A DNA stretch of 64,000 nucleotides from an uncultured candidatus Porisulfidus sp. (GCA_965204575.1 OZ241993.1:1040586-1104585); one strand, 5' to 3'. Shown: positions 2,696 through 29,579, counted from the stretch's first letter. Notes: generated by a model from the letters alone, not told the origin. Made by a program: numbers and translations.

Positions 2696-4373
2696 CGTCT
2701 GCCGTCACATCTTCCGCCTCGTCGAGGTTGCGACGATGCCGGTATTCCAGCCGGCCTTCTTCGAGCGTGCGCGGACTGATGACCACCCGGTGAGGGATGC
2801 CGACCAGGTCGGCTTCGGCAAACATGACCCCCGGGCGCAGGTTGCGGTCGTCGAGCAGGACCTCAATGCCAAGTTCCCTGCATTGCCCATATAGCGTTTC
2901 GGCGGTATCGCGAACCGTATCGTCGCGATCGGCACCGATCGGGCACAGCAGGACGGAAAAGGGTGCCATCGCATCCGGCCAGATGATGCCATGCTCATCG
3001 TGGTTTTGTTCGATGGCGGCGGCCACGATCCGGGTAATGCCGATGCCGTAGCAGCCCATCGTGACGACCTGAGCCTTGCCGTCGGGATCCAGTACGGTGC
3101 AGTCCATGGCCTGACTGTATTTGTTGCCGAGCTGGAAGATGTGGCCGACTTCAATGCCGCGCGCACTGCGTACGGGACCGCTCCCGTCCGGACTCGTTTC
3201 CCCGTCCTCAAGGTTGCGGATATCGCAGATCTGGTCCGGAGTCGCGTCGCGCTCCCAGTTGACGCCGGTGTAGTGCACGCCCTCGCGGTTGGCGCCGCAC
3301 ACGAAATCCGAAAGCACGGCTGCGCTGGCATCGACGTAGAGGGGCAGTTCAAGCCCGGCAGGCCCCAGCGAACCAACCGGGCAACCGAGCTTCTTCTGGA
3401 CTTCCTCTTCATCTGCAAAGCACAACGGGCTTCGGACGCCTTCGATCTTGGCAGCCTTCACCGCATTCAGGCGATGATCGCCGCGCAGGATCAGCGCGAC
3501 CAGCGAGCCTTCCTCCTCACCCTGGACGATCAGGGTCTTGACCGACTGTTCCGGCGGCGTGCCGAGGAACTCCGAGACCTCCTCGATGGTGTGCTGGCCG
3601 GGGGTGTCGACCTCTTTCATTTCCTGGGTCGGCTCGGGACGCGGGGACTCCGGGGCCGGGGCGGGCGCCTGCTCCACGTTGGCCGCGTAATCCGACTGCT
3701 CCGAATACACGATCTCGTCTTCGCCGGAATCCGCCAGTACGTGGAATTCGTGCGACAGGGCACCGCCGATCGCACCCGAATCGGCCCGCACGTATCGATA
3801 TTCGAGCCCCAGGCGGTCGAAGATCCGGCAGTAGGCGAGGCGCATCTCCTCGTAGGTCTCATCCAGGCTGGCCGGGTCGAGATGGAACGAATAGGCGTCC
3901 TTCATCACGAATTCCCGGGCCCGCATCACGCCGAAACGGGGGCGGATCTCGTCCCGGAACTTGGTCTGGATCTGGTAGTAGTTCACCGGCAGCTGGCGGT
4001 AGCTCTTGAGTTCGCGCCGCGCGATGTCGGTGATGACTTCCTCGTGGGTCGGGCCGAAGCAGAATTCCCGTTCGTGGCGGTCGGCGAAGCGCAGCAGTTC
4101 CGGCCCGTACTGCTCCCAGCGCCCGGATTCGTGCCACAATTCCGCCGGTTGCACGGCCGGCATCAGCAATTCCACGGCACCGCTGCGGTCCATTTCCTCG
4201 CGCACGATGGTTTCGACCTTGCGCGCAACCTTCAGGCCGAAGGGCATCCAGCTGTACAGCCCGGCGGCCAGCATCCGGATGAGGCCGGCGCGCAGCATCA
4301 ACTGGTGGCTCACGATCTCGGCATCGGCCGGGGTCTCCTTGAGCGTGGTCAGAGGCAGTCGGGACAGGCGCAT
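2655..4373 (-). CDS. proS: Prolyl-tRNA synthetase
   Basis: 572 aa. Class II aaRS motifs with an editing-domain insertion. Typical bacterial ProS N-terminus ([30 protein letters not shown]). Confidence 0.95.
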
Positions 4374-16817: not shown

Positions 16818-19721
16818 ATGAATAATCCAAAAGTTGAATCTTGCCCTACATATAAGCGAACCGGGTTTGCTTCATTCCTGTTTGCGGTCATTTGCCCAAA
16901 AGATGCCAAAGCCGCTCTTTTGAGCCCGAACGTCTTGAGGTTGGCGTTCACGGTACGACTCAAGGAAATCCCCATCGGGAAAATCGAAGCGAGTGAAGTA
17001 AAAACCTTGTGGCGATGGGGAAGCGTTCGGATTCGACATGCTTCCGGGAAAGCGGCTGTTTCGGGATTGTCGCGACACAATGCCGAGGAACTAGCAAAAA
17101 CACTAGAAGCTTCCAGAGTCGATTGGTGGCATAAGCTTTTCGCGACGCAGATCGAATCTCTGCGCTCCGTTCACGACCATTTGGCGCACTTCAGCAACCC
17201 GCCAAGGTATATCTCTCATGGTGCCGGCTGTAACCTTGAGCGCGATGCGGAGGCAGTGGCTGGCCGATTTGCTTCCCGGTGGCCGGATGCGTTGTCCAGC
17301 AGCCCGGAAATTAAGATGCTGAAAATGGTCCGGGAGTATTTGAAGGATCCTGATGGTTGCCGCATAAAGGCAAACAAAATCTATATTGCAAATCAACTGA
17401 ATGGTTCGCGCGAATTTTTCGATCAAGTGGAGGCGCGGCCGCTAACCGATGAACAACGTAGAGCGGTTGTCATCGACGAAAACCGCAATCTGGTTGTCGC
17501 TGCGGCAGGAAGTGGAAAGACCTCGGTGATTGTGGGCAAGGCCGGCTGGCTTGTCTGGAGGGACTATCGGCGCCCGTCTGAATTGTTGCTGCTGGCTTTT
17601 GCGAGAGATGCGCGGAAAGAGATGGAAGAGCGGATCCAAAAGCGGCTTGGCGATAAAACAGCGCAAAGTCTTACAGTTCGAACCTTTCATAGTTTGGGTA
17701 TGTCGATTATTGGTCAAGCAGAAGGCCAACTCCCAACGTTGGCCAAAGTGGCTGAAGACAGCAGGGCGTTGTCCGATCTGCTGAAATCCATCATTGATAA
17801 CTTGCTCACGGAACACGCATTCACAAAAATTTTGCTGAAATGGTTCCAAACTTACTTCGCACCCTACAAAAGCGAACATGAATGCCAAAGTATGGGCGAG
17901 TATTGGGACTATGTCCGCAAGCATGACATCCGGTCACTGAAAGGTGAGAAGGTCAAGAGTTACCAAGAATGCGAGATTGCGAATTTTCTCTACCTCAATG
18001 GTGTTTCCTACGAGTACGAAGCAATTTATGAACACAAGACCGCGACACTGGACAGGCGGCAATATCAACCCGATTTTTATCTCCCGGAAGCAGGAGTCTA
18101 CATTGAGCATTTCGGGCTCAATGCATCGGGAGATCCTGCTCCGTTCGTCGATAAGACAGAATACCTCCGGTCCATGAAGTGGAAGCGGCAATGTCACGAC
18201 AGATTCGGCACTATTCTCGTTGAGACATTCAGCCACGAGCATGATGCGGGGAAATTAACCGAGAACTTGGCTGAGAAATTAGCGGCTCACGGCGTGACCT
18301 TTTCTCCAATTCCTTCTGCAGACATCTTCTCTATTTTGAATGAACAGGGTCGGGTTGATCCGTTCACACATTTTGTGGCGACTTTTCTACAACACTACAA
18401 AGGGGCTCGATTGTCATTTCAGGAGGTAGCTCGACGGGCTACGGGTGTCAGGGACAGGCTGAGGGCAGAAGCGTTTCTAGCCGTTTTCAAGCCGATTTTC
18501 CAGCGCTACCAAGATACCCTTTCCCAGCAAGGACAGATAGATTTTCATGACATGATCAATCAAGCAACGGAGCATGTAGAGACGGGACGCTACCGTAGCC
18601 CTTTCGGCTATATCCTCGTCGATGAGTTTCAAGACATCTCCCCTGGGAGAGCTAGATTGCTGAAGGCATTGCTCGATCAGTCTCCGACGACCCAGTTGTT
18701 TGCCGTTGGCGATGACTGGCAATCAATATACCGGTTCGGTGGATCAGACATTGCCGTTATGCGCGAGTTCGAAGATCATTTCGGGCACAGTGAGCGTATT
18801 GATTTGGAAACAACTTTTCGCTGTGCCGATCGAATCTCTAAAGTTGCGACTGACTTCATTCTTCGCAATCCTGCACAGATACACAAGGAGACCCATTCAG
18901 TACTCCAAGCAGCCGGGACCAGTGTGTATATCGGCCTTCCTGAGAAAGAGCGCTCTCTGCTCAGAGAAACGCTTGATGAGATTGCCGCTGACGCGGCTCG
19001 TCATGACGGAGGATCGACTGTTCTGTTGTTGGGTCGCTACCGGCATATGCAGCCGGAAAATATGTCTGAGTTAGGCGGACAATACTCTGGGTTGCAACTC
19101 TCCTACATGACCGTGCATCGTTCAAAAGGACTGGAGGCCGACTATGTCGTGGTGCTCGGTCTGTGTTCCGGAAAATACGGGTTTCCGTCCGAGATCAGTG
19201 ATGACCCACTTCTCGACTTAGTTCTTGCTGAGCCGGAAAAGCACCCGAATGCTGAGGAGCGCCGCTTATTCTATGTCGCTGTCACACGTGCCAGACGACG
19301 TGTCTATCTGCTCGCAGATGATGGTCCGCCTTCTTCCTTTGTCCAAGAGTTGATTGATGGGGAATACGATGTTGCCGTTTTCGGACGAGCACCAGAAAAT
19401 GACGTTTCTTGCCCGAGGTGCACCGAGGGGCGCTTGGAACGACGCGAAAATGCTCGGAATGGAAAAATTTTTTACGGCTGCTCGAATTGGCCTTATTGCA
19501 AGTATCGACAGCCCGTTTGTCCCAAGTGCAAAACAGGGTTGTTGGTCAAAAAAGACACTGCTTTTCGCTGCGAGGACTGTGGCCAAGATGTAGAGGGCTG
19601 TCCCAGATGTGATGGCTGGCTGATAAAAAGAGTCAGCCAGTATGGCCCTTTCTTTGGCTGTTCGAATTGGCCTTTCTGTGATTACACCCGAAACATTAAG
19701 CAACGACAGTCACGGCACTAG
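16818..19721 (+). CDS. Helicase IV (HelD)-like SF1 UvrD-family helicase with an inserted nuclease-like domain and three C-terminal topoisomerase-type C4 zinc ribbons
   Basis: 967 aa. Walker A AAAGSGKTSVIVGKAGWL and the motifs LLLAFARDARKEMEERI, ILVDEFQDISPGRARLL, LFAVGDDWQSIYRFGG, DYVVVLGLCSGKYGFP and YVAVTRARRRVYLL align with E. coli HelD. An insert around YQECEIANFLYLNG...QPDFYLPEAGVYIEHFG looks like a PD-(D/E)xK-type domain. Three CxxC...GCSNWPxC modules close the C-terminus. Low-GC context. Confidence 0.8.
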   Translation: MNNPKVESCPTYKRTGFASFLFAVICPKDAKAALLSPNVLRLAFTVRLKEIPIGKIEASEVKTLWRWGSVRIRHASGKAAVSGLSRHNAEELAKTLEASRVDWWHKLFATQIESLRSVHDHLAHFSNPPRYISHGAGCNLERDAEAVAGRFASRWPDALSSSPEIKMLKMVREYLKDPDGCRIKANKIYIANQLNGSREFFDQVEARPLTDEQRRAVVIDENRNLVVAAAGSGKTSVIVGKAGWLVWRDYRRPSELLLLAFARDARKEMEERIQKRLGDKTAQSLTVRTFHSLGMSIIGQAEGQLPTLAKVAEDSRALSDLLKSIIDNLLTEHAFTKILLKWFQTYFAPYKSEHECQSMGEYWDYVRKHDIRSLKGEKVKSYQECEIANFLYLNGVSYEYEAIYEHKTATLDRRQYQPDFYLPEAGVYIEHFGLNASGDPAPFVDKTEYLRSMKWKRQCHDRFGTILVETFSHEHDAGKLTENLAEKLAAHGVTFSPIPSADIFSILNEQGRVDPFTHFVATFLQHYKGARLSFQEVARRATGVRDRLRAEAFLAVFKPIFQRYQDTLSQQGQIDFHDMINQATEHVETGRYRSPFGYILVDEFQDISPGRARLLKALLDQSPTTQLFAVGDDWQSIYRFGGSDIAVMREFEDHFGHSERIDLETTFRCADRISKVATDFILRNPAQIHKETHSVLQAAGTSVYIGLPEKERSLLRETLDEIAADAARHDGGSTVLLLGRYRHMQPENMSELGGQYSGLQLSYMTVHRSKGLEADYVVVLGLCSGKYGFPSEISDDPLLDLVLAEPEKHPNAEERRLFYVAVTRARRRVYLLADDGPPSSFVQELIDGEYDVAVFGRAPENDVSCPRCTEGRLERRENARNGKIFYGCSNWPYCKYRQPVCPKCKTGLLVKKDTAFRCEDCGQDVEGCPRCDGWLIKRVSQYGPFFGCSNWPFCDYTRNIKQRQSRH

Positions 19722-19732: not shown

Positions 19733-20170
19733 TTAAAGGTTGTTCGATAGCGAAGACCACGGATTGACGAGCGCCACATCCATCCCTCTAAAATCTTTAG
19801 TGTTGCGCGTGACGAGAGTTAATCCGTGTCGCTTTGCTACAGCGGCAATCTGCGCGTCAGCCATTGGCTTTTGGCGGCCTGTGTTGTCTCCATCTCCCAT
19901 GATTCTTCCCCAGAGGATTGCGGCATCTTGGTCGAAAGGAAGAATTCGGTCTTGAAATTGAGAGACCAAGTCATCTTCAACCCAGCGCATGAGGAGGTCT
20001 CTTTTTGCTGGCTCTTTCACACGGCTTGCGCCTCGCGCCAACTCACCAAGACTGATTGAGGAGAGGAATAGGTTTTCGGGATTCTGTTCTGCAAACCAAG
20101 CTGTCACTTTAGGCTCAGGCCGAGGCTTGAGCGTTTCGCTGAGCACATTGGTGTCGATCAGGTAGGGCAT
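19733..20170 (-). CDS. vapC: VapC-family PIN-domain toxin
   Basis: MPYLIDTNVLSE... carries the PIN acidic residues (D6, E, D). 145 aa. Confidence 0.85.
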   Translation of the reverse strand: MPYLIDTNVLSETLKPRPEPKVTAWFAEQNPENLFLSSISLGELARGASRVKEPAKRDLLMRWVEDDLVSQFQDRILPFDQDAAILWGRIMGDGDNTGRQKPMADAQIAAVAKRHGLTLVTRNTKDFRGMDVALVNPWSSLSNNL

Positions 20171-20490
20171 TATTCGAGATCAATCTGGCGGCCTGTGGAA
20201 CGGTCACGCTCAATCACGATGTCTTCGCCCACAAATGGGGATGAGCGAAAGAAATCGACCAATTCCACACCAGTTCGTGCCGATCTTACGGGTGTCATAG
20301 ACGTGATGGCCTTACGTACTTTTTTGGCGTTTTTCCCTCCCTCCCGGAGGATGCTGGCAACAGCCTTGATGGCCCATGCGTCGCGCGTAGGTACGGTGAC
20401 TTCAATGCGTCGCGCCCCTTGGGCGGTTGCTTTGGCGCGATGTCGGGCGACCCGCACCTTCGATTTTGTACTTGTCGATCGCTTGGGCAT
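20170..20490 (-). CDS. vapB: VapB-type antitoxin (partner of the upstream PIN toxin)
   Basis: A 106-aa ORF whose stop overlaps the toxin start. Basic N-terminus, C-terminal toxin-binding-like tail. Confidence 0.6.
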   Translation of the reverse strand: MPKRSTSTKSKVRVARHRAKATAQGARRIEVTVPTRDAWAIKAVASILREGGKNAKKVRKAITSMTPVRSARTGVELVDFFRSSPFVGEDIVIERDRSTGRQIDLE

Positions 20491-20596
20491 GTATATAATC
20501 CGGTAACGTTACCGGATTATATACTATAATAACCTGGATGCGAATAGAACGCTGTCATCTCGGATTTTCATAAATGATAAATGAGGTTCATTCGAT

Positions 20597-20947
20597 ATGA
20601 ATATTCAAGACTACGTTGAAGAGGGAATCTTCTCTCCGAAATTGATTTCGGATGTGCTTTTCACGACCCAGTCCGATATTGCAAACACCTTGGGTCTCAC
20701 TCGGAGTGCTTTTTCCCACGCCGAGAGGCGACGGGCAGAGAAAACACAAACCCGATTGCAGGAAATGCTGGAGATTCTCGATCGCGTCGAGCAGTTCACT
20801 GGCTCACCGCTTGCATCTTACGCATGGTTTCGTTCGGAACCAATCACCGGGTTCGGGGGGCATACCGCCAGCAGGCTGGTACGCGAAGGACACGCTGATT
20901 ACGTGCATGAGTATCTTGACCGCAAACAGGCTGGCAGAGATGCCTGA
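20597..20947 (+). CDS. Xre/MbcA/ParS-family antitoxin (DUF2384 C-terminal domain), orphan
   Basis: The C-terminal SYAWFRSEPITGFGGHTASRLVREGHADYVHEYLDR matches the DUF2384 toxin-binding domain, and an N-terminal HTH is present. No RES-domain toxin ORF lies downstream. Confidence 0.7.
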   Translation: MNIQDYVEEGIFSPKLISDVLFTTQSDIANTLGLTRSAFSHAERRRAEKTQTRLQEMLEILDRVEQFTGSPLASYAWFRSEPITGFGGHTASRLVREGHADYVHEYLDRKQAGRDA

Positions 20948-21005
20948 TCAAGTTGTTTGCCCATACGCTATACTTTTCGCGCCTTTTTAGCTACGCAATT
21001 GTTCA

Positions 21006-21077
21006 GTGCCTGCCGTCACCCTTTCTGACGGCTCGACCCGCGAGTTTGCACAGCCGGTCACGGTGATGCAGAGGTTG
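21006..21077. repeat. Degenerate duplicate of the thrS 5' coding end (direct repeat partner of 29588-29659)
   Basis: gtgcctgccgtcaccctttctgacggctcgacccgcgagtttgcacagccggtcacggtgatgcag is about 85% identical to the thrS start, where it encodes (M)[21 protein letters not shown]. Confidence 0.8.
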
Positions 21078-21137
21078 GGAAGGCAATCTCGACAAATTCC
21101 GGCAAGGCCGCCCGGCGTGATCTAATTGATTGGGGGC

Positions 21138-22361
21138 CTATGCTGGGCATTCAAACGCTGTCGCATAGGCCGCGAGATCTGCCGCACTCATGTCGAGTTG
21201 TCGTGCGATTTCTTTCCAGCCGGCAACCGCAGTGGCAACTTCGTCGATGATGGCTTCGGCTCGGTGCGCGCTCAATGCGAAGTAGGGTGCAGCGGTGCGG
21301 GCGAGATCCAGATTAGCCTCTGGGCCTTCTTCCGAGATCCAGGTCGTCAATTCTCGCGCTTTCTCGGCCAGGGGCACCGGGTTCAGGTCATAGGCCGGTG
21401 AAAGACGCCATTGGTTGTCATGGTCGTACAGGAACCCGTGATTGCGGAGGTGGTCGTCCAGGTTGCCTGCCATCACATTGAATACGACCCGTCGCCACAG
21501 TTCGTGCAGGTCTTCCGTCGGGGCGCTTGAGTGCATCCTGATGGCTTCCGCGATATCCGTGTACGCCGCTTCGTCGCCATCCTCGAGCCCCAGGAGGGTC
21601 ATCGCCGAGATGAACGGGATCCGCCGCTCGCCATCCCGGTCGAATCGTGTCATCAGGGATACCGGTCGGCCCGCCACGTCCAACAGTGTGGCTTCTGCAG
21701 TGTTGATGCCGGCGGCGGCGGCCAATGTCATGGCCAGCACCTCGCCATGGGGAATACTTCGGTCGTCATCCTGTGTCGGAAACTTGGCGATGGCGAGGCG
21801 GCCGTCATCATCTATGACGGCGGATTTTGGCCGGGCGCCGCCGAGAGGGGAACCTTCGTTCAGAAGGATCTTCAGGTCTTCGGCAGTTTCGGTGCCTGAT
21901 CCTACGGCATCGGCAGCATTGATCAGTTCCGGCAGCCGAATCAAGGGAGGCACGCGGCGGGGGCGGGTGCCGGGTTCGAGACCTTCTTCGCCTTTTCGGC
22001 GGAACTGGAGTGCGCCGATTCTCGTTCGGTCGTCAATGGAGAGAAGGTAATCCACCTCGGACAAGGTGCGCTTTTCGCCGGTTTTGCGAAAAGCCCGCCT
22101 GGCCAGTTGCCGACCCCATCGGTCCGGTGCGGCATCGCGCAATGCACCGGGCAGTGCTGACTTGCTCGACGAGGTATAAAACGGTTGCTGTCCGAGCGGC
22201 AGGTTCGCGGGGTCGAGCGCAAAGGCCTGAGGACGATTGAGCCATTCATGGGCGTATTCGAAAACCGAGCTTGGGCCACGCCGCTTGGCAAGGTAATGGA
22301 ACCGTCCGACAAGACAGGCCACTCCATTGTCGTCGATGAAGACTTCAAGGGTGTCGGTCAT
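21138..22361 (-). CDS. hipA: HipA-family type II toxin (Ser/Thr kinase)
   Basis: 407 aa. An N-terminal HipA_N-like region and a C-terminal kinase core with the aspartate-containing motif (LDDHLRNHGFL). Paired with the HTH gene at 22358-22693. Confidence 0.8.
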   Translation of the reverse strand: MTDTLEVFIDDNGVACLVGRFHYLAKRRGPSSVFEYAHEWLNRPQAFALDPANLPLGQQPFYTSSSKSALPGALRDAAPDRWGRQLARRAFRKTGEKRTLSEVDYLLSIDDRTRIGALQFRRKGEEGLEPGTRPRRVPPLIRLPELINAADAVGSGTETAEDLKILLNEGSPLGGARPKSAVIDDDGRLAIAKFPTQDDDRSIPHGEVLAMTLAAAAGINTAEATLLDVAGRPVSLMTRFDRDGERRIPFISAMTLLGLEDGDEAAYTDIAEAIRMHSSAPTEDLHELWRRVVFNVMAGNLDDHLRNHGFLYDHDNQWRLSPAYDLNPVPLAEKARELTTWISEEGPEANLDLARTAAPYFALSAHRAEAIIDEVATAVAGWKEIARQLDMSAADLAAYATAFECPA

Positions 22362-22693
22362 GATGGTGCCCGGGTTTGCTTGCGGGGCCGTATTTTCTTG
22401 GGCAGCCGGTGTTCTTCAAGGTCCAGTCCGAGGGAATCGTCGCGTCGGTCAGCCACTTGGCCGAGACCTTCGGCAAGCCCGAGGATCGCCAACACGGTCG
22501 CATAGGCCCCCATCGAGACCGAAGGGTCGCCGCGCTCCACCTTGTGGAGGGTGGCACGGCTAATGAATGCCCGTTCCGCCATCGAGACCGTGGAGATGCG
22601 GCGCTTCTTCCGCGCCACCACGATGTCCTCGCCGAGCTTGGCGAGGGCACGCTTCGCCGCACCAGGCAGTGCACGTGTCGCTAAGGTCTTCAT
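22358..22693 (-). CDS. hipB: HipB-like XRE HTH antitoxin
   Basis: HTH ISTVSMAERAFISRATLHKVERGD. Overlaps the start of hipA. Confidence 0.75.
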   Translation of the reverse strand: MKTLATRALPGAAKRALAKLGEDIVVARKKRRISTVSMAERAFISRATLHKVERGDPSVSMGAYATVLAILGLAEGLGQVADRRDDSLGLDLEEHRLPKKIRPRKQTRAPS

Positions 22694-23405
22694 ATTGTCT
22701 TATATTATAATCAAAAAACAATTGAATGTTTATTTAATTATACAATATGATACATGCCTTCCTGTTGTGAAGTGCTTCAGGTTACGCCCATTGCGGGCAG
22801 CTTTCCAGAAGGATAGAGACTCTCCGCATGAAGAACGAGCCTGTCCTGCTTCATTCGGACCGGGGCTTTGACCCAATCAGGAGCACCCTGGCCTGAGGGT
22901 CCTGAAGTCGCCGTCGGGAGGTCTCGGCCTGCCTTTTGCCGATGGGAAAGGATCCGTATTCCGTGCCTTGGCTTGTTGATTCTTCGACAGATGGAATCTC
23001 TTCATAATCATTTCAAAAATAGTGAAATGATATATTGATAAATTGAATAATCCGTTGTATATCATTCATATAATAATTTCAAATATCCTAATTATTGTTT
23101 CATGCCAATCACCGACTCGGCCGTGAGTTTCACGGACTGCATGAGGGCAACGTGATACGCTACCGGTTGAGGCTTGAGGATCTTGCCGGGCTCGGAGAGG
23201 ATTCATGATGAAACGTCTACGGACTCTTGCGAAGAAGATTTTCGGCATCGTGGACATTCGACGCTTCGGAGAGTTTGCGAGAAGCGGCCGCGCCTGCTCA
23301 GGCCGTTAGCACTCCCGGTCGTTCGGGTCCGGATCAGTAAGAGACTGCCTTTTACTCAGACAACTCGCGGGTCGAGGGGCGATCGTGCAACTAAGGGATG
23401 AGACT

Positions 23406-23436
23406 GATGTGTATAATATCTGTAATTATACACATC
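23406..23436 (+). promoter_or_regulatory. Perfect 12-bp inverted repeat operator, with an embedded TATAAT, upstream of the vapBC module
   Basis: gatgtgtataat-atctgta-attatacacatc lies 10-40 nt upstream of the VapB start at 23447. Confidence 0.55.
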
Positions 23437-23446
23437 TGGAGTTGTC

Positions 23447-23641
23447 ATGCGCACCAATATCGAGATCAATGATAGTTTGATGGCAGAGGCCATGAAGGCG
23501 GGAGGATTCGAGACCAAGAAAGCTACTGTGGAGGAAGGATTGCGCCTGCTTGTGCAAACCCGATTACAGGGACGAATCCGGAAATTGCGCGGGAAGTTGC
23601 GCTGGGAGGATTCGCTTGACGAAATGCGGCGTGACCGGTGA
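23447..23641 (+). CDS. vapB: VapB-family antitoxin
   Basis: 64 aa. MRTNIEINDSLMAEAMKAGGFETKKATVEEGLRLLV is a typical VapB N-terminus. Confidence 0.8.
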   Translation: MRTNIEINDSLMAEAMKAGGFETKKATVEEGLRLLVQTRLQGRIRKLRGKLRWEDSLDEMRRDR

Positions 23642-24027
23642 TTGTCGTCGACTCCTCCGTCTGGATTGATTACTTCAACGGCACCGAGACCCGAGAAACC
23701 GCGCTGCTTGACGGAATCCTCGGCCTGGAACCGGTTATGGTGGGCGACCTTATTCTGGCGGAGGTTCTGCAAGGTTTCCACGCTGACCGCGACGTTCGCA
23801 GGGCGCGTATGGTGCTGGATACCCTATTGTTTGAGCCTATGCTGGGCCGCGGTATTGCTTTGGCCAGTGCTGCTAATTACCGGACACTTCGTGGCAAAGG
23901 TATTACCGTACGGAAAACCATTGACGTGCTAATCGCGACCTTTTGTATAGAAAATGGCCATGTCTTGCTTCACTCTGACCGGGACTTTGTCCCGATTGAA
24001 GAACACCTCGGACTAAAAGCCCTTTAG
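23638..24027 (+). CDS. vapC: VapC-family PIN-domain toxin
   Basis: MIVVDSSVWIDYF... is a PIN domain. It overlaps the vapB stop by 4 nt. Confidence 0.85.
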   Translation: MIVVDSSVWIDYFNGTETRETALLDGILGLEPVMVGDLILAEVLQGFHADRDVRRARMVLDTLLFEPMLGRGIALASAANYRTLRGKGITVRKTIDVLIATFCIENGHVLLHSDRDFVPIEEHLGLKAL

Positions 24028-24149
24028 CCATTGAATAGCCCTACAAGTTTTTCAGGGTGAGCATTTCGTTTGGTGGACAGGCCGGGATTGTTTTGGGGTG
24101 CGGTCGAGGATGGCTAGACTGTCATGGGTGGCTCTCCAGAAGCAATAGA

Positions 24150-24190
24150 TACTCTATTCCGTATACAATATGATTATACGCAATAGCGTG
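24150..24190 (+). promoter_or_regulatory. Palindromic operator-like sites upstream of hipB (second module)
   Basis: Two palindromes, aatagatactctatt and cgtatacaatatgattatacg, sit just upstream of the ATG at 24196. Confidence 0.35.
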
Positions 24191-24195
24191 TTTTC

Positions 24196-24468
24196 ATGTC
24201 ATTGGAACCGGAGTTGACAATGAATCAAATCGCCCGAACTGCGAAACAGGTCGGCGTGGCGGTGCGTCGCCATCGTCGTGCCTTGGGGTGGAGTCAAAGC
24301 GACCTCGGATCAAAAGCGGGCCTGCGCCAGGCGACGATATCGACGCTGGAGAGCGGAGAACCCGGGACGCGCTTGCGTACGCTGGTCGACGTCATGGCCG
24401 CGCTCGATCTTGAGGTGGTGATCCGGGACCGCTCCAAGGCTCCCAAGAGCATCGAGGAACTGTTCTGA
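24196..24468 (+). CDS. hipB: HipB-like XRE HTH antitoxin
   Basis: HTH IARTAKQVGVAVRRHRRALGWSQSDLGSKAGLRQATISTLESGE. Confidence 0.8.
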   Translation: MSLEPELTMNQIARTAKQVGVAVRRHRRALGWSQSDLGSKAGLRQATISTLESGEPGTRLRTLVDVMAALDLEVVIRDRSKAPKSIEELF

Positions 24469-25769
24469 TGGCGCGTCGGCGAACCCATATTCCTCTCGAC
24501 GTCTACCTCAATGGCCGTCTTGTCGGCCGGTTGCATCGGTCGGCGGGTGGAGCAGTAGAGTTCCGGTATGACGAGAGTTGGCTGAGTTGGGAGGGCGCCT
24601 TGCCGGTTTCACTCTCGCTGCCGCTGCGCGAGGAGCGCTATTCGGGTGATGCCGTCATCACGGTTCTGGACAATCTGCTTCCGGATGATGAAGCAGTTCG
24701 CCGCCGGGTCGCGGAGCGGGTCAGGGCCGAGAGCCATAGCGTTTACGATCTCCTGTCGAAGATCGGAAGGGATTGCGTGGGGGCCTTGCAGTTCCTGCCT
24801 CAAGGGTATGCGCCCGACCCGGTGGATGCGGTGGAAGGGCGACAGATTCCTGATGGCGAGGTTGCCGAAAGAATCCGCAGCCTTGCCATGACTCCGCTGG
24901 GCATCGACGAGACGGAAGCCTTCCGGATCTCGATTGCAGGCATGCAGGAGAAAACCGCTTTCCTCCACTGGGGAGGGGAGTGGCACCTCCCGCACGGCAC
25001 GACCGCGACGACCCACATCATGAAACCGCAGATTGGCGTATTGCCGAACGGGATTGATCTCACCCAGAGCGTGGAAAACGAGCATCTGTGCCTGAAGCTA
25101 ACTTCCGCTTTCGGGTTGCCCACCGCGCGCACGGCAATCACGGACTTCGACGATATCCGCGTGCTGGTGATCGAGCGTTTTGATCGGCGCTGGGACCAGG
25201 AAGAGCGATTGTTGCGGTTGCCTCAGGAAGACTGTTGCCAGGCGCTTTCGGTGCCGTCGTCTCTGAAATACGATGCCGACGGCGGCCCCGGAATGTCCGA
25301 TCTTCTCAACTTGCTGCAAGGCAGCGACACGCCATCGGTGGACCGGCGGCTGTTCCTGAAGTCTCAGATCGTGTTCTGGCTACTCGGTGCGACTGACGGG
25401 CACGCCAAGAACTTCTCCGTTTTCTTGGGACCCGGATCCCGGTTCAGCCTAACTCCTTTTTATGACGTGATGTCGACGCAGCCCGCCGTGTATGCGGGAA
25501 AGATCAGAAAGAACCAGTACAAATTCGCACTCGCGGTCGGCGACAATCGGCACTACGTCATGGACACGATCCTGCCGCGCCATTTCGTGCAAACGGCAGA
25601 AAGCAGTGGCGTGAAAGGTACGGTCGTTGAAGAGGTCTGCGCTGAAGTAGCGGGATCAGCCGAACACGCAATCGGTGAAGCGCTGGGTTCCTTGCCAGAG
25701 GATTTTCCGGAGGCGCTGGCCGACTCGATTATCCAGGGAGTGCGGGCGCGTTTGAAGCGGCTTCAGTAG
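24468..25769 (+). CDS. hipA: HipA-family type II toxin (Ser/Thr kinase)
   Basis: 433 aa. N-terminal HipA coupling region (LDVYLNGRLVGRL) and a kinase C-domain (ATDGHAKNFSVF). The start overlaps the hipB stop. Confidence 0.85.
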   Translation: MARRRTHIPLDVYLNGRLVGRLHRSAGGAVEFRYDESWLSWEGALPVSLSLPLREERYSGDAVITVLDNLLPDDEAVRRRVAERVRAESHSVYDLLSKIGRDCVGALQFLPQGYAPDPVDAVEGRQIPDGEVAERIRSLAMTPLGIDETEAFRISIAGMQEKTAFLHWGGEWHLPHGTTATTHIMKPQIGVLPNGIDLTQSVENEHLCLKLTSAFGLPTARTAITDFDDIRVLVIERFDRRWDQEERLLRLPQEDCCQALSVPSSLKYDADGGPGMSDLLNLLQGSDTPSVDRRLFLKSQIVFWLLGATDGHAKNFSVFLGPGSRFSLTPFYDVMSTQPAVYAGKIRKNQYKFALAVGDNRHYVMDTILPRHFVQTAESSGVKGTVVEEVCAEVAGSAEHAIGEALGSLPEDFPEALADSIIQGVRARLKRLQ

Positions 25770-26004
25770 ATGGCGGGTCGAGATCCGGGGATTTTTTCAG
25801 CAACTTGAACGCGAGATTGAACAGTAGTATCAGTCATTTCCATGTGTTTTCCCTGTAGCGGATATGCCCTGATCCTAACTCGATTCCCGTCGCGTCTGTC
25901 AAGTTTATCTATATAGTCCCCTTTTTAGGCATTGAATTCTTCTTCCCCGATCTCCGAGCTAGGGCGATTTTGGGGGATTTTTTCCGTTTGGGGTTGCCCA
26001 CCAA

Positions 26005-27830
26005 GAGATTTTCGAGCCGAAGAGGGTGATGTGGTCGGGTTTTGTGTCCAACCGCTGGGGGCTGAGGATGATTTTTGACGCTTCGGCGCCCTGTCGCGCA
26101 GGGCTCCGCTCGCCGCTCAGGCGGCCCGTGCCAGGGTCGCAGCCGAACCGGTCGTCACGAAGTGTCGTAGGCCAGGAACCCGGCCATTCGGTCCAGCGCC
26201 TGCCGGACCCGCTGCACATGAGCCGTCTGGAACACCAGCCGCCGGTTGCGGGCATGCCGCACCACCTTGGCCACCAGGTGGACCCAGCACAGGCGCACCT
26301 GCTTCATCCGGGTCCACAGCCAGTCGCGTCCGAACGCGGCATGCCGCAGCAGCGCGTTGACGTTGGCCGACAGCACCGCCAGCTGCCACCAGGCGGCGTT
26401 CGCCCCGAACTTCCCCGACGGCATCATGCCGCCGGCCAGGTCCTGCTTGAGCACGGCGTGCACCTCTTCGCCATGCCCGCAGCGCTCGTGCGCGAAGCGC
26501 ACCACCTCCGAGGCGGTCATCCCCAGGCCCGCCCCCTCCCCGGAGCGCCCCGGATACGGCAGGTTGGTCAGATAGACCCGGTAGCGGTACGCCGGACGCC
26601 CGGACCTCGCCGGCGTCTCGTCCGGGTTCACCCCCAACACGCCCGGCAAGACACGCCGGGTGCCGACATGGCGCAGCAGCTGCCCCCGGGACTGCCGCGC
26701 GCCCCACGGCGAGACATAATCCAGGTCGGCGCATTCCAGTTCCGGCTCCGAGGCCCGCACCGGCTCCCACCACTGCTCCGGCGTCGCCCCCACGGCCTCG
26801 CGTAGTTCTTCTCTCTGCGGCGCGCCGACCACGAAGCCGATCACGCCGAAGCGGCGCAATGCCGCCGGGCGCGAAGCCGGCACGTTGCAGAAGCGGATCA
26901 GCCGGTTCTGGCAACCCGCCCCGTCCGAACGCAGCCACACCCGCCGCACCTCCGGCGGCAGCCCCGACAGCACCCGCTGGAGCATCTCCAGGTTGCCCAC
27001 CGAGGCCGGCACGTTGCCGTCGCGGAACTGGCTCGCCAGCACCATGCCCAACTCCGGGCAGAACATCGACAGCGGCTGGTAGCCCCGCTCGCCCGGAACC
27101 TCGCCGGTCGAACTGCGGTAGGTCGGCTGCGCCTCGCGCTTGCCCGAGGCCAGCACCGTCGCATCCAGGTCCAGGGTCAACTCGTCCAGCCCCAGGCGCC
27201 GGATCAGGCCCCGCGCCAGCCGCCGGTTGACCGCCTCGACCAGTTGCAGGGCCGCCGCCGGCTCCGGCACCACCGCCGCGCCCTTCACGCGCGCCGCACC
27301 GGCCGCCGCATCATGGAAACGCCGCAGCCAGTCATGCACCGCATTGGCGGACGGGAAGGTGCGCCCGCGCCCCCCGCGGAAGCGCGCCGCCAGCCCCGCC
27401 GGCATCACCCCCAGAAGCTCCGGTTCGTAGTCGCGCACCAGTCGGCACAGGCTGCGGTCCGCCTCCAGCGCGTCCACGTCCGAGACCCGCTCGTGACCGA
27501 TCACGTTGAGCAGCAGCACGGTCAGCATCATCTGGCCGTCGCGCCAGCCCTGCGCCCCGGCCACCTGCACCGGAAGGGTCCGAAACGCCCCGCTGCGGCG
27601 CAGCAGCTCCAGCCACAGCACGGCCCCGCCACAGGCGCTGGTTCGGCTTAACTTGGGGTCGCCCCCAATGGCGACCAAAGGGGAAAAGTTCGACATATAA
27701 TGAGACTCCCGGTTGGTTGTTCCCGGTTCACCCAATGGGTGAAACTTTTGCACCACCGATTTTAACCGTTTCACTCGGTTAAATAAGCGCCAACCGGGAC
27801 CTCGCTCTCATTTAGCTCGGATATCGGGGT
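26005..27830 (-). mobile_element. IS1380-family insertion sequence (ends approximate)
   Basis: Contains the DDE transposase at 26155-27696. Terminal inverted repeats could not be defined confidently. Confidence 0.4.
26155..27696 (-). CDS. IS1380-family DDE transposase
   Basis: The C-terminal signature HAVLKQDLAGGMMPSGKFGANAAWWQLAVLSANVNALL fits the conserved H-x-K-x-LK...SGKF-AN-W...LA-N pattern of IS1380 transposases. An ATG at 27696 has a GGGAG SD; there is an upstream in-frame GTG at 27774. Confidence 0.7.
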   Translation of the reverse strand: MSNFSPLVAIGGDPKLSRTSACGGAVLWLELLRRSGAFRTLPVQVAGAQGWRDGQMMLTVLLLNVIGHERVSDVDALEADRSLCRLVRDYEPELLGVMPAGLAARFRGGRGRTFPSANAVHDWLRRFHDAAAGAARVKGAAVVPEPAAALQLVEAVNRRLARGLIRRLGLDELTLDLDATVLASGKREAQPTYRSSTGEVPGERGYQPLSMFCPELGMVLASQFRDGNVPASVGNLEMLQRVLSGLPPEVRRVWLRSDGAGCQNRLIRFCNVPASRPAALRRFGVIGFVVGAPQREELREAVGATPEQWWEPVRASEPELECADLDYVSPWGARQSRGQLLRHVGTRRVLPGVLGVNPDETPARSGRPAYRYRVYLTNLPYPGRSGEGAGLGMTASEVVRFAHERCGHGEEVHAVLKQDLAGGMMPSGKFGANAAWWQLAVLSANVNALLRHAAFGRDWLWTRMKQVRLCWVHLVAKVVRHARNRRLVFQTAHVQRVRQALDRMAGFLAYDTS

Positions 27831-27871
27831 TCTTTATTTCCTCCTATAATAAGTAAAGGAGGATTTTATAG

Positions 27872-28126
27872 ATGCCTTTAAACATCAAAAATATTGCTAC
27901 TCATGCGTTAGCAAAGAAAATCGCAACCTTAACTGGGGAGTCTATGACTAAGGTTGTCACAGAGGCTCTCCAGGAGAAATTGGTGCAAGTGGAAAAGGCA
28001 AAAGGCCGCGTTGGACTGGCGGAGGAACTTGATCGCATTGCCTTGCACTGTGCCAGTCTACCAAGGCGCGATGACAGAAGCCCCGACGAGATCATTGGTT
28101 ACGACGACCACGGGCTACCCCAGTGA
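27872..28126 (+). CDS. vapB: VapB-family antitoxin
   Basis: 84 aa. MPLNIKNIATHALAKKIATLTGESMTKVVTEALQEKL. Confidence 0.75.
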   Translation: MPLNIKNIATHALAKKIATLTGESMTKVVTEALQEKLVQVEKAKGRVGLAEELDRIALHCASLPRRDDRSPDEIIGYDDHGLPQ

Positions 28127-28544
28127 TCGCCATTGATGCGTCTGCTCTCATCGCGATTCTGAGCGATGAACCGGAACGAAGTGGTTTCAACAAACTGATC
28201 GAGTCGGAAGAATTTGCGTACATTAGTGCTGCCAGCCTACTTGAGACCCGTATAGTTCTGTTTTCTCGCTTTGGTGACGATGGAGTCTTGGCTTTGGATT
28301 CGTTCCTTCTGAAAAGTGGCATCACTGTTGTCGAGGTCTCTCCCCGCATGGGCGCATTGCATTTGAGGCATACCAGCGTTTTGGCAAAGGGACAGGCCAT
28401 GGCGCATCTCTAAATTACGGAGACTGTTTTTCGTATGCTTTGGCAAAATATCTGGATGCTCCACTTCTCTTTAAGGGCGATGACTTTTCCAAAACAGACA
28501 TTTTCTCGACGTTGGTCGATACAGGAGAAACAGGTCAGCACTGA
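28123..28544 (+). pseudogene. vapC: VapC PIN-domain toxin interrupted by a frameshift
   Basis: The N-terminal PIN region (MIAIDASALIAIL...) reads to about 28385. The conserved C-terminal part (IAFEAYQRFGKGTGHGASLNYGDCFSYALAKYLDAPLLFKGDDFSKTDI) continues in the -1 frame, up to the stop at 28544. Confidence 0.7.
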
Positions 28545-28703
28545 GCAAGTGACTGAAGATCAAATGTCTGCATTGATCCTTGTCGCATGTGGATTGTAAA
28601 ACTGCAAAACTGATGTCCAAGACAAATCACTGGTGTTGTACCTCAGAGTTGAACCTGGGTCTTATAAAATATCCCGGTATCGGATTCATACAGGAACGGT
28701 AAC

Positions 28704-29579
28704 ATGGGAAATACCGAGGAATGCTATAAAGTTTGCCGTGAGAATATATCGGAGGCAGGACTATGGGTAGTGAAGTCAGAATATTGCGTGGTCCGTGCTT
28801 TGAGATCTCCACGGTGGTCAAAAACTTCTCAGCGTGACGAATCATCTAGGCCAGGTGTTTACATTCTTGCTGATGGAGCTAAAGAAAAGATTTACATTGG
28901 TCAAACCGATACTCTTCAGAAGAGAATACGTACTCATAAAAATAATAGATTCGATTGGTGGGAAGAAATGTTGTGGATTACCCCGGATGGAAGCTACCGG
29001 TTCGGGACAGACCGTAGACGCTACGTGGAATCCAAGCTGATAAGCCAAGCCCGGAAGCAAGAGATCGAATTGAAAAATGATCAGTTTCCAGAACCACCTC
29101 AGCTAGACCTAGATGAGCAAAAAGACCTAGATGAAAAGGTTCTAAATCCCATTCTCCAGATATTTATTCCTTTGATGATGGGCTTCAATTTTGTGTTGCC
29201 ATCGCCCCAGAGAGATACTGAACCAGGTTGTACTGAGTTTGAAATTATTCCGCAACAAGAGAGCATCAAGGCCTTTGCGAAGATAGTTGGCGGCAAATGG
29301 ATTGTGCAAAAAGGTTCTCAAGCCCGCAAAGATTGGATGGGAGGTGCGAGAACGAAAGAGCTCATTAAGGGGGCATACCACAATCTGTATCAGTCTTTAA
29401 AGAAACAGGATATTCTTCGCGAATACGAGGAATTCTGTGTTTTCACCGAAGACCATGAATTTGATAGTCCTAGTGCGGCCGCATCTGTCATCTACGGACG
29501 ACAGGCCGCGGGTCCTCGCAATTGGAATGTGAGAGGCGAAGACAAAACCTACCGGGAATGGGAAAAAGAGAACCTATAA
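28704..29579 (+). CDS. GIY-YIG nuclease-domain protein with a C-terminal DUF4357 domain
   Basis: GVYIL...KIYIGQT...R...E gives the GIY-YIG core. The C-terminal [22 protein letters not shown] resembles DUF4357. Confidence 0.6.

What the first reader, a model, noticed from the sequence alone, without database searches (positions are those of the whole stretch)
16818..19721. HelD-like helicase with an embedded nuclease-like domain and a triple zinc-ribbon tail: candidate defence or anti-MGE factor
Helicase IV-like motifs are clear. The protein also carries an insertion with a PD-(D/E)xK-like signature (E...QPDFYLPEAGVYIEHFG) and three topoisomerase-type C4 Zn ribbons at the C-terminus, not found in E. 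coli HelD. It heads an island packed with TA modules. Helicase-nuclease fusions of this kind are common single-gene antiphage systems.
Basis: partly seen in the sequence, partly recalled or inferred. Interest (0 to 1): 0.6.

Follow-up and report, generated by a model that had tools for sequence, protein, structure and literature searches.

The report
Mobile helicase with built-in nuclease
This gene encodes a DNA-unwinding motor of the E. coli helicase IV type with a DNA-cutting domain built into it and three zinc fingers at its end; it belongs to a large, unnamed, horizontally mobile family found in defence islands and mobile elements, making it a plausible but untested one-gene defence against phages or plasmids.

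Summary
ORF 16818-19721 (+) encodes a 967-aa protein. Its motor matches E. coli helicase IV at 41-44% identity in two blocks. About 150 extra residues sit in the domain-1B position, and a 114-aa tail follows the HelD-like part.

The insert folds as a PD-(D/E)xK nuclease (pLDDT 94). Its closest relatives are T7 endonuclease I, Vsr and homing endonucleases. E384, D419 and E430 are each kept in at least 92 of 94 diverse homologues. The canonical lysine is never present (F432); K456 and H460 on the next helix are conserved instead. The tail holds three C4 ribbons of the topoisomerase I type, and all 12 cysteines are conserved.

This is not the RNAP-recycling HelD. It belongs to a large uncharacterised family: more than 150 clusters at 50% identity share the helicase, insert and tail. 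Members about 60% identical occur in unrelated phyla. Outside this lineage, 11 of 11 loci examined sit among integrases, transposases, TA modules or restriction/DISARM genes, on plasmids, or near prophage ends. No partner gene is conserved.

PADLOC 2.0 has no model for the family, and I found no experimental paper. Best reading (confidence about 0.5): a stand-alone helicase-nuclease acting against invading DNA. The defence role rests on context only.

The parts
16818..19721 (+). Whole gene: 967-aa helicase IV-type SF1A helicase with an embedded nuclease domain and a zinc-ribbon tail
   Evidence: ORF list. NCBIfam helicase IV 504.5 bits. AlphaFold2 model with mean pLDDT 93.8 and pTM 0.87. Full-length homologues at 62-99% identity.
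16818..17417 (+). N-terminal domain (aa 1-200): beta-rich module (strands 11-85) followed by long helices (86-126, 134-148, 163-196). This is the most variable part of the family.
   Evidence: Secondary structure from the model. Weak Helicase_IV_N match (E = 0.0013, 19.2 bits, below the 24.5 cut-off). Helicase_IV_N is found in 14 of 49 diverse members. Mean identity 47% here against about 75% for the motor.
17418..17783 (+). Motor domain 1A, first part (aa 201-322). Walker A 'AAAGSGKTS' lies at aa 228-236 (window 17499-17525).
   Evidence: 44% identity to E. coli HelD 162-307. G231, G233, K234 and T235 are invariant in 94 homologues.
17784..18476 (+). Enlarged domain-1B region (aa 323-553): helical 1B elements on either side of the inserted nuclease domain
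   Evidence: Replaces HelD residues 308-388. Helices 315-345 and 500-570 in the model.
17910..18317 (+). Embedded PD-(D/E)xK nuclease-fold domain (aa 365-500). S381-x-x-E384 lies on helix 382-393. P418-D419-F420 comes before strand 420-422. E430-H431 lies on strand 427-432. K456 and H460 lie on helix 446-463.
   Evidence: PADLOC and PHROG nuclease profiles. T7 endonuclease I match at 1.3e-4 with the family profile, aligning the catalytic E20, D55 and E65. Domain model pLDDT 94.2. Foldseek hits to I-Bth0305I, AbaSI, Vsr, R2 RLE, homing endonucleases and DUF559. Residue conservation.
18477..19376 (+). Motor domains 1A (second part) and 2A (aa 554-853), carrying motifs II (VDEFQD 601-606), III (GDDWQ 631-635), IV (R668), V (H767, K770) and VI (T823, R824)
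   Evidence: 41% identity to HelD 389-681. D602, Q605, D606, G631, D632, D633, Q635, R668, H767, K770 and R824 are invariant.
19410..19499 (+). Zinc ribbon 1 (C865, C868, C888, C894), topoisomerase I type
   Evidence: Pfam Zn_ribbon_Top1. Cysteines invariant or at least 90% conserved.
19518..19580 (+). Zinc ribbon 2 (C901, C904, C918, C921), a shorter C4 ribbon
   Evidence: Third Zn_ribbon_Top1 stretch when the tail is searched alone. Cysteines at least 90% conserved.
19599..19679 (+). Zinc ribbon 3 (C928, C931, C948, C954), topoisomerase I type
   Evidence: Best Pfam Zn_ribbon_Top1 stretch, residues 926-962. Cysteines at least 90% conserved.
19733..20947 (.). Context rather than part of the system: PIN toxin (19733-20170, -), its 106-aa partner (20170-20490, -) and an orphan Xre/MbcA/ParS-type antitoxin (20597-20947, +). 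These travel with the helicase only in this lineage.
   Evidence: Pfam matches. Same order between lpdA and thrS in L001, L012 and L002. Absent next to family members elsewhere.

Best explanation
The gene encodes a self-contained helicase-nuclease that moves between genomes as cargo of mobile elements and defence islands. It most likely acts on invading or aberrantly replicating DNA.

**Shown**
- It has an intact SF1A motor of the E. coli helicase IV type.
- A T7-endonuclease-I/Vsr-like PD-(D/E)xK domain is embedded in domain 1B, with its metal-binding acidic triad conserved.
- Three conserved C4 ribbons of the topoisomerase I type form the tail.
- The N-terminal domain is variable.
- The gene stands alone and is horizontally mobile.

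**Inferred**
- The zinc ribbons and the N-terminal domain bring the enzyme to single-stranded or branched DNA. In E. coli topoisomerase I such ribbons bind ssDNA.
- The motor translocates 3'-5' and unwinds, as helicase IV does.
- The nuclease sits in 1B beside the DNA path and cuts the unwound strand or the fork/junction. The result would be degraded or unreplicatable foreign DNA.
- The variable N-terminus would set target or trigger specificity.
For: - **Motor intact.** Walker A, motifs II-VI and the arginine fingers are invariant in 94 homologues of 33-93% identity. UvrD, Rep and PcrA are the top structural matches.
- **Nuclease likely functional.** E384 is kept in 93/94 homologues, D419 in 92/94, E430 in 93/94, H431 in 88/94, K456 in 91/94 and H460 in 94/94. 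The domain is nearly as conserved as the motor (70% against 74-77% mean identity). Fold and profile matches are all to active nucleases.
- **Zinc tail.** All 12 cysteines are at least 90% conserved, and 48 of 49 diverse members carry Zn_ribbon_Top1. The ribbons of E. coli TopA bind ssDNA (PMC4678816, abstract).
- **Mobility.** GC is 50.6% against 65% for the backbone. Homologues of about 60% identity occur in Chromatiales, Rhodospirillaceae, Spirochaetia, Bryobacterales and Pseudomonadales.
- **Context.** Neighbours include a type III MTase plus an NsnB-like ATPase, a type IIG RM enzyme and DrmB. Others are GmrSD, Type ISP, integrases, transposases and TA pairs. The family is also on conjugative and mobilizable plasmids.
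- **Prophage ends.** In 15 of 34 viral contigs of at least 20 kb, the gene lies within 3 kb of a contig end (44% within the terminal 10% of contig length, against 20% expected; p = 0.001). There it sits next to serine recombinases or a Mob_Pre relaxase.
- **No partner.** No neighbour family is conserved across 73 loci.
Against: - No experiment exists, and nothing here measures phage or plasmid restriction.
- The family has no model in PADLOC 2.0, and I found no paper describing it.
- The canonical catalytic lysine is missing (F432), so nuclease activity is an inference.
- In this lineage the gene has stayed in one chromosomal slot (lpdA-thrS) through 80-93% protein identity. That shows stable vertical retention, not rapid turnover.
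- The context sample is small (about a dozen independent loci plus viral contigs) and has no matched control.
- Proximity to prophage contig ends may partly reflect misdrawn prophage borders.
Confidence: 0.5

Rival explanations
1. The protein works for the mobile element that carries it. It would be a replication, recombination or transfer helper: unwinding nicked element DNA and resolving branched intermediates, much as host PcrA/UvrD serves rolling-circle plasmids and ICEs, with the endonuclease-I-like domain acting as a junction resolvase.
For: - Family members lie next to integrases, large serine recombinases, a Mob_Pre relaxase, a TrwC fragment and SSB, and on conjugative plasmids.
- The nearest solved sequence relative of the insert is T7 endonuclease I, a junction-resolving enzyme.
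- PHROG Holliday-junction resolvase hit.
Against: - The gene is not tied to any one type of element or to any replication module.
- In this lineage it persists in the chromosome with no element around it.
- It sits at element edges among cargo, not in core modules.
- Several neighbours are bona fide defence genes.
Confidence: 0.2
2. It is an accessory host DNA-repair or recombination helicase: a helicase IV paralogue with an added structure-specific nuclease that processes stalled forks, gaps or recombination intermediates.
For: - Closest named relative is E. coli helicase IV, a 3'-5' DNA helicase (PMC8655204, introduction).
- Stable position next to housekeeping operons in four related genomes.
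- UmuD and a 3'-5' exonuclease are neighbours on one plasmid.
Against: - Patchy distribution with about 60% identity across phyla.
- Foreign GC content.
- Variable, mobile-element and defence contexts elsewhere.
- It diverges about twice as fast as the flanking lpdA and thrS: 85% identity against 91% and 94.5% in L012.
Confidence: 0.15
3. The embedded domain is catalytically dead and serves only as a DNA- or structure-recognition module, so the protein is a specialised helicase and not a helicase-nuclease.
For: - The lysine of the ExK motif is replaced by F/L/Y/W/V in 94 of 94 homologues.
- T7 endonuclease I needs the equivalent K67. This rests on general knowledge; the K67A variant 2pfj is the chain that aligned.
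Against: - The three acidic residues, H431, K456 and H460 are almost invariant. That level of conservation is not expected for a purely structural role.
- Vsr-like members of the superfamily also lack this lysine and are active. This rests on general knowledge; the Foldseek matches to Vsr and I-Bth0305I are.
Confidence: 0.15
4. It is a housekeeping RNA-polymerase-recycling HelD.
For: - Distant similarity to HelD_BACSU and HelR models (E = 1.7e-9 and 8e-4).
- Topoisomerase I zinc ribbons are known to contact RNAP (PMC4678816, abstract).
Against: - HelD_BACSU scores 36 bits against a cut-off of 419, and HelR 17.8 against 750.
- Foldseek ranks B. subtilis HelD 40th, below UvrD, Rep, PcrA, AddA and RecB.
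- RNAP-recycling HelD carries a clamp arm in the 1B position and has no helicase activity, and is distinct from E. coli helicase IV (PMC8655204). Here that position holds a nuclease fold.
- The gene is accessory and mobile.
Confidence: 0.02

Closest known systems
E. coli DNA helicase IV (HelD, b0962; NCBIfam NF008276)
   Same: The SF1A motor is 41-44% identical over residues 174-322 and 554-853. Order is collinear, with an N-terminal extension before the motor and a reduced 2B region.
   Different: - About 150 extra residues forming a nuclease fold inside 1B.
- A 114-aa triple zinc-ribbon tail.
- The N-terminal domain is only weakly similar.
- Score is just under the family cut-off (504.5 against 543).
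- Accessory and horizontally mobile, not a fixed chromosomal gene.
RecB / AddA helicase-nucleases
   Same: A UvrD-like SF1A motor and a PD-(D/E)xK nuclease in one polypeptide. Both appear among the structural matches.
   Different: - In RecB/AddA the nuclease is a C-terminal RecB-type domain with the canonical lysine. Here it is a T7-endonuclease-I/Vsr-like domain inserted in 1B.
- No partner subunits here.
- TIGR scores are far below the cut-offs.
Phage T7 endonuclease I (PF05367) and Vsr-like nucleases (Vsr, I-Bth0305I, DUF559/DUF2726)
   Same: The core fold is shared, and the S-x-x-E, P-D-F and E motifs align with T7 E20, D55 and E65.
   Different: - K67 of T7 endonuclease I is replaced by Phe.
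- The domain is embedded in a helicase instead of forming a free-standing dimer.
- Below the Pfam cut-off (20.4 against 29.1 bits).
- hhalign against Vsr is not significant.
Gabija (GajA nuclease plus GajB UvrD-like helicase) and single-protein helicase-nuclease defences such as Nhi or Hhe
   Same: A UvrD-type motor combined with a nuclease activity in a defence-island setting. GajB models match at up to 159 bits.
   Different: - No GajA/OLD-type partner next to it.
- The GajB similarity is generic motor similarity in split stretches.
- None of the 25 best PADLOC matches covers the whole protein; the strongest (GajB, 159 bits) aligns in three separate stretches.
- Nhi and Hhe use Upf1/Dna2-like motors (general knowledge, not tested here).
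PADLOC candidates PDC-S69, PDC-S68 and HEAT_CxxC_PD-DEXK
   Same: Their C-terminal nuclease domains are homologous to the insert (E = 2e-12 to 6e-7).
   Different: Only the nuclease domain is shared; the rest of those proteins is unrelated. They are themselves untested candidates.

Membership tests
E. coli-type DNA helicase IV (NCBIfam NF008276) | Whole-protein score at or above the curated cut-off (543 bits) | tested here: not met
   504.5 bits in two stretches. It is a near miss caused by the insert and the divergent N-terminus.
E. coli-type DNA helicase IV (NCBIfam NF008276) | SF1A motor with all helicase motifs, collinear with HelD | tested here: met
   41-44% identity in two collinear blocks. 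The motifs are invariant in the family.
E. coli-type DNA helicase IV (NCBIfam NF008276) | Helicase_IV_N N-terminal domain (PF12462) | tested here: inconclusive
   E = 0.0013 and 19.2 bits against a cut-off of 24.5 for this protein. The domain is found in 14 of 49 family members, down to E = 1e-10.
E. coli-type DNA helicase IV (NCBIfam NF008276) | Small helical 1B domain and no C-terminal extension | tested here: not met
   231 residues in place of 81, plus a 114-aa tail.
RNAP-recycling HelD / HelR (NF041464, NF041254) | Score above the family cut-off; secondary-channel arm and clamp arm | tested here: not met
   36.1 bits against 419 and 17.8 against 750. Foldseek rank 40, TM 0.30-0.37. The 1B position holds a nuclease fold, not a clamp arm (PMC8655204).
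PD-(D/E)xK nuclease superfamily | alpha-beta-beta-beta-alpha-beta core fold | tested here: met
   Model elements are H382-393, E420-422, E427-432, H446-463 and E466-471. Foldseek gives 17 viral nuclease matches at E <= 1e-3. I-Bth0305I matches with probability 1.0 and rmsd 2.7 A.
PD-(D/E)xK nuclease superfamily | Acidic metal-binding residues (E ... D ... E/D) | tested here: met
   E384, D419 and E430 align to T7 endonuclease I E20, D55 and E65. They are kept in 92-93 of 94 homologues.
PD-(D/E)xK nuclease superfamily | Lysine of the (D/E)xK motif | tested here: not met
   F432; never K in 94 homologues. K456 and H460 on the following helix are conserved and might substitute, which cannot be tested with these tools.
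PD-(D/E)xK nuclease superfamily | Metal-dependent phosphodiesterase activity | not testable with these tools
   Needs a biochemical assay.
Phage endonuclease I family (PF05367) | Score at or above the gathering threshold (29.1 bits) | tested here: not met
   20.4 bits, E = 4e-4 on the insert alone. A family profile against PDB T7 endonuclease I gives E = 1.3e-4. It is a related domain, not a member.
Topoisomerase-type C4 zinc ribbon (PF01396) | Score above the cut-off (32 bits) and four Cys ligands per ribbon | tested here: met
   63.6 bits on the whole protein, 73.7 bits and three stretches on the tail. All 12 cysteines are conserved.
Gabija | GajB helicase encoded next to a GajA ATPase-TOPRIM nuclease | tested here: not met
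   GajB models match, but the neighbours are lpdA and a PIN toxin. No conserved neighbour was found in 73 loci.
Any named or candidate system in PADLOC-DB 2.0 | Full-length match to a system-specific model | tested here: not met
   Best hit is GajB at 158.8 bits in three split stretches. Only the nuclease domain matches PDC-S69, PDC-S68 and HEAT_CxxC_PDDEXK. DefenseFinder and later PADLOC releases were not available.
Anti-phage / anti-plasmid defence system (functional class) | Protection of a host against phage or plasmid when expressed | not testable with these tools
   Context evidence only.

The most novel reading that the evidence does not exclude
This is the founding example of a widespread, unrecognised single-protein immune system. 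A helicase IV-type motor carries a junction- or fork-cutting endonuclease-I-like nuclease inside its 1B domain. It uses topoisomerase-type zinc ribbons and a swappable N-terminal sensor to find and destroy the single-stranded or branched replication and transfer intermediates of phages and plasmids.
Probability: 0.4. Interest if true: 0.65.

Novelty: new variant of a known kind. Interest (0 to 1): 0.5.

Why it matters
Helicase-nuclease pairs are a recurrent design in bacterial immunity and repair; RecBCD, AddAB, Gabija, Hachiman and Nhi are examples. This family uses a different layout. The nuclease is embedded in domain 1B of an SF1A motor, the same site where RNAP-recycling HelD carries its clamp arm. 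Three topoisomerase-type zinc ribbons are added at the end.

The family is large: more than 150 clusters at 50% identity share the helicase, insert and tail. It occurs in many phyla, on plasmids and at prophage borders, yet NCBI's annotation of the plasmid copies examined names it only 'UvrD-helicase domain-containing protein'.

If it proves to be a defence system, it would add a common single-gene system to the catalogues. It would also give helicase IV-type enzymes, whose cellular role is still poorly defined, a concrete biological setting. If instead it serves mobile elements or repair, it still defines a new helicase-nuclease architecture with a well-predicted structure that is ready for biochemistry.

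Tried and rejected
- **Exact-sequence lookup of the window protein.** Not on record. I used close homologues instead.
- **Homologue search with the insert alone.** It returned only 28 short gene fragments and no new architectures.
- **Source names for ten NCBI-held clusters.** None carries a name.
- **hhalign of the insert profile against E. coli Vsr.** Not significant (probability 0.7%, E = 0.08), though E25 and D51 line up. I therefore describe the domain as T7-endonuclease-I/Vsr-like, not as a Vsr family member.
- **Literature.** Seven full-text searches and look-ups in three recent discovery papers found no description of this architecture.
- **Promoter and terminator scan.** Nothing above shuffled expectation around the gene.
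- **Gabija membership.** Considered and rejected, because there is no GajA.
- **RecB/AddA membership.** Rejected, because the nuclease type and position differ and the scores are far below cut-off.
- **RNAP-recycling HelD.** Rejected.
- **A conserved helicase + PIN + ParS three-part system.** Rejected, because that trio exists only in this lineage.
Full report
**1. The observation**

It begins 110 bp after lpdA. Its GC content is 50.6%, against 65.3% for aceE-lpdA and 62.8% for thrS.

Pfam finds a UvrD-helicase domain stretched over residues 209-655, although the profile has only 271 positions. It also finds UvrD_C and Zn_ribbon_Top1. NCBIfam's best model is DNA helicase IV (NF008276) at 504.5 bits, just under its 543-bit cut-off. 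Rep, PcrA, UvrD, AddA and RecB all score far below theirs.

BLASTP against E. coli K-12 HelD gives two collinear blocks:
- residues 174-322 align to HelD 162-307 at 44% identity;
- residues 554-853 align to HelD 389-681 at 41% identity.

Between the blocks, 231 residues stand where HelD has 81. After residue 853, where HelD ends, there are 114 more residues. The insert and the tail are therefore real additions to a helicase IV-type core.

**2. The insert is a nuclease-fold domain**

Sequence evidence, with residues 351-500 searched alone:
- PADLOC PDC-S69 (2e-12), HEAT_CxxC_PD-DEXK (3e-9) and PDC-S68 (6e-7), in each case matching their C-terminal nuclease part;
- PHROG Holliday-junction resolvase and endonuclease families;
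- Pfam Phage_endo_I at E = 4e-4, below the gathering threshold;
- T7 endonuclease I in the PDB at E = 1.3e-4, using a profile of 32 diverse family inserts.

The T7 alignment pairs S381-x-x-E384 with T7 E20, P418-D419-F420 with D55, and E430 with E65.

Structural evidence:
- AlphaFold2 models the full protein at mean pLDDT 93.8 and pTM 0.87, and the insert alone at pLDDT 94.2.
- The insert shows the alpha-beta-beta-beta-alpha-beta core expected of the superfamily.
- Foldseek against the PDB gives no hit at E <= 1e-3. The top of the list is nonetheless nearly all PD-(D/E)xK enzymes: AbaSI, I-Bth0305I (probability 1.0, rmsd 2.7 A), Vsr, the R2 restriction-like endonuclease, PA/L-protein endonucleases and HincII, plus subunits of protist mitochondrial ribosomes.
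- Foldseek against viral models gives 17 hits at E <= 1e-3. Those that carry a name are mostly called restriction enzyme, endonuclease I, homing endonuclease or DUF559; Vsr endonuclease and DUF2726 appear just above that threshold.

The lysine of the (D/E)xK motif is absent. Position 432 is F/L/Y/W/V in all 94 homologues examined. The conserved residues are E384 (93/94), D419 (92/94), E430 (93/94), H431 (88/94), K456 (91/94) and H460 (94/94). K456 and H460 lie on the helix after the third strand and could supply the missing positive charge; that is inference. A direct profile comparison with E. coli Vsr is not significant, so I call the domain T7-endonuclease-I/Vsr-like and do not file it in either family.

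**3. The tail and the N-terminus**

The tail holds three C4 ribbons: C865/868/888/894, C901/904/918/921 and C928/931/948/954. Pfam Zn_ribbon_Top1 scores 73.7 bits in three stretches on the tail alone. All 12 cysteines are at least 90% conserved. In E. coli topoisomerase I these ribbons bind single-stranded DNA and the C-terminal region contacts RNA polymerase (PMC4678816, abstract).

The N-terminal 200 residues form a beta-rich module followed by long helices. They resemble Helicase_IV_N only weakly. They are the least conserved part of the protein:

| Region | Mean identity among close homologues |
|---|---|
| N-terminus | 47% |
| Zinc tail | 61% |
| Nuclease domain | 70% |
| Motor | 74-77% |

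**4. A large family, not a one-off fusion**

- The word-index search returned more than 1,500 homologues. The best 120 nearly all match over at least 83% of the query (most over 95% or more), are 62-99% identical, and all carry Zn_ribbon_Top1.
- The exhaustive HMMER search of 1.84 billion cluster representatives found 3,136 proteins at E <= 1e-30. Nearly all of the best 150, each standing for a different 50%-identity cluster, match in one stretch from about residue 170 to about 960. That stretch covers motor, insert and tail. The N-terminus is often different.
- Of 49 diverse members, 48 carry Zn_ribbon_Top1 and 14 carry Helicase_IV_N. A few carry extra domains such as SprT-like, LTD or a STAND NTPase.
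- All helicase motifs are invariant.
- NCBI annotates the plasmid copies only as 'UvrD-helicase domain-containing protein'. None of ten clusters looked up carries a name.

**5. Distribution and context**

Proteins 58-66% identical occur in Rhodospirillaceae, Thalassobaculaceae, Spirochaetia, Bryobacterales and Pseudomonadales. Proteins 80-93% identical occur in Chromatiales-like Gammaproteobacteria. Taken together with the foreign GC content, this indicates horizontal transfer.

In three relatives of the source genome (L001 93%, L012 85%, L002 80%), the order is lpdA | helicase | PIN + partner | orphan ParS-type antitoxin | thrS. The helicase and those three small genes are therefore the older occupants of this slot. 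The window genome has since gained two HipBA pairs, a VapBC, a DDE transposase, an Rv0623-like/PIN pair and a GIY-YIG/DUF4357 protein. In L012 the helicase is 85% identical while lpdA is 91% and thrS 94.5%, so it diverges roughly twice as fast as its neighbours.

Outside this lineage, every locus examined is variable or mobile:

| Locus | Neighbours |
|---|---|
| L013 | type III MTase (492 bits), NsnB/PDC-M55A-like ATPase, ResIII, multi-ubiquitin/E2/ThiF-JAB operon, PLD |
| L014 | three integrases, transposases, TrwC fragment, SSB |
| L015 | Type ISP C-terminal fragment, transposases, PIN, caspase-like protein |
| L016 | GmrSD-like protein, integrase, ParA |
| L017 | integrase + AlpA, type IIG RM enzyme (686 bits) |
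| L020 | transposases, resolvase, AddAB-like pair, TacAT |
| L021 | transposases, integrase, REase-ARP, deaminase |
| L022 | DISARM DrmB (248 bits) with a large helicase, RelB/YafQ |
| L018 | conjugative plasmid of Methylotuvimicrobium |
| L019 | mobilizable Acinetobacter plasmids |

In IMG/VR, 346 candidate stretches encode relatives. Of 34 viral contigs of at least 20 kb, 15 carry the gene within 3 kb of a contig end (44% within the terminal 10% of contig length, against 20% expected; p = 0.001). There it sits beside large serine recombinases, a Mob_Pre relaxase or an M15 peptidase. Some of this end bias may come from misdrawn prophage borders.

An all-against-all comparison of ORFs within 4 kb of the gene in 73 loci found conserved neighbours only within groups of closely related loci. 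None was conserved across the family. The gene therefore works alone.

**6. What it is not**

- **RNAP-recycling HelD.** The NCBIfam HelD_BACSU and HelR models score 36 and 18 bits against cut-offs of 419 and 750. B. subtilis and mycobacterial HelD rank 40th or lower structurally. The literature separates E. coli helicase IV, a 3'-5' helicase with a small 1B domain, from HelD, which has a clamp arm in the 1B position and no helicase activity (PMC8655204). In the present family that same position holds a nuclease.
- **Gabija.** GajB models match through generic motor similarity, but there is no GajA.
- **RecB/AddA.** The nuclease type and position differ, and the scores are far below cut-off.
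- **Any PADLOC 2.0 system.** No model covers the whole protein.

**7. Most likely mechanism**

*Shown:*
- an intact SF1A motor;
- a conserved nuclease-fold active site embedded in 1B;
- three conserved zinc ribbons;
- a variable N-terminus;
- stand-alone, mobile, defence-island and mobile-element cargo.

*Inferred:*
- The ribbons, and perhaps the N-terminal domain, engage ssDNA or branched DNA.
- The motor translocates 3'-5' and unwinds.
- The 1B-embedded nuclease cuts the unwound strand or the fork/junction.
- Invading or aberrantly replicating DNA is destroyed as a result.

I give this defence or anti-MGE reading about 0.5. The rivals are a helper for the carrying element (0.2), an accessory host repair enzyme (0.15) and RNAP-recycling HelD (0.02). 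Separately, and compatible with any of these roles, the nuclease domain may be catalytically dead and used only for DNA recognition (0.15).

**8. Novelty and verdict**

Its functional reading is plausible and supported by context, but it is untested. The family is absent from the defence catalogue I could query, and I found no paper on it.

Helicase-nuclease fusions in defence islands are a known kind. The new elements are the helicase IV-type motor, the nuclease embedded in 1B, the lysine-less endonuclease-I-like active site and the triple topoisomerase-type ribbon tail. I rate it a new variant of a known kind, with interest 0.5.

Noticed in passing
window 20597-20947 (+): An Xre/MbcA/ParS-type antitoxin gene with no RES-type toxin gene after it. 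The same orphan is kept at 80-96% identity next to the helicase and PIN pair in L001, L012 and L002, so it has been retained without its usual partner.
   Followed up: partly
window 19733-29579: A dense run of toxin-antitoxin genes between lpdA and thrS: a PIN toxin with a 106-aa partner, HipBA (21138-22693), VapBC (23447-24027), a second HipBA (24196-25769) and an Rv0623-like gene with a short PIN (27872-28413). The run also holds a DDE_Tnp_1_4 transposase (26155-27774) in a 70% GC patch and a GIY-YIG/DUF4357 protein (28704-29579). All but the first pair are absent from the same slot in related genomes.
   Followed up: partly
L013 4559-6995; L019 283-2655: Operons encoding a multi-ubiquitin domain protein and a ThiF-type E1 enzyme (plus a prokaryotic E2, a JAB domain and BubE in L013) lie within a few kb of family members in two unrelated places: a metagenomic chromosome and Acinetobacter plasmids. 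In L019 a second 1130-aa UvrD-like helicase and a sigma factor sit between them. This may be coincidence within defence islands or a recurrent association.
   Followed up: no
IMG/VR loci L023-L074: Family members tend to lie within 3 kb of the ends of predicted viral contigs (15 of 34 contigs of at least 20 kb), next to large serine recombinases, a Mob_Pre relaxase or an M15 peptidase. This is the position typical of prophage cargo, or of host DNA wrongly included in the prophage call.
   Followed up: partly
L020 10402-16393 (-): An AddAB-like pair (a 1115-aa UvrD-type helicase plus an 883-aa PDDEXK_1 protein) and a TacA/GNAT toxin pair lie directly downstream of a family member, among transposases.
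   Followed up: no
window 1-3000, 39000-44000, 63000-64000: Further low-GC patches (47-57% GC against a backbone of about 65%) suggest other acquired segments in this window. I did not examine them.
   Followed up: no
A4 members: Single family members carry extra domains: SprT-like protease, a lamin-tail domain, a STAND NTPase and DUF5818. Only 14 of 49 keep a recognisable Helicase_IV_N domain, so the N-terminal module seems to be swapped often.
   Followed up: partly
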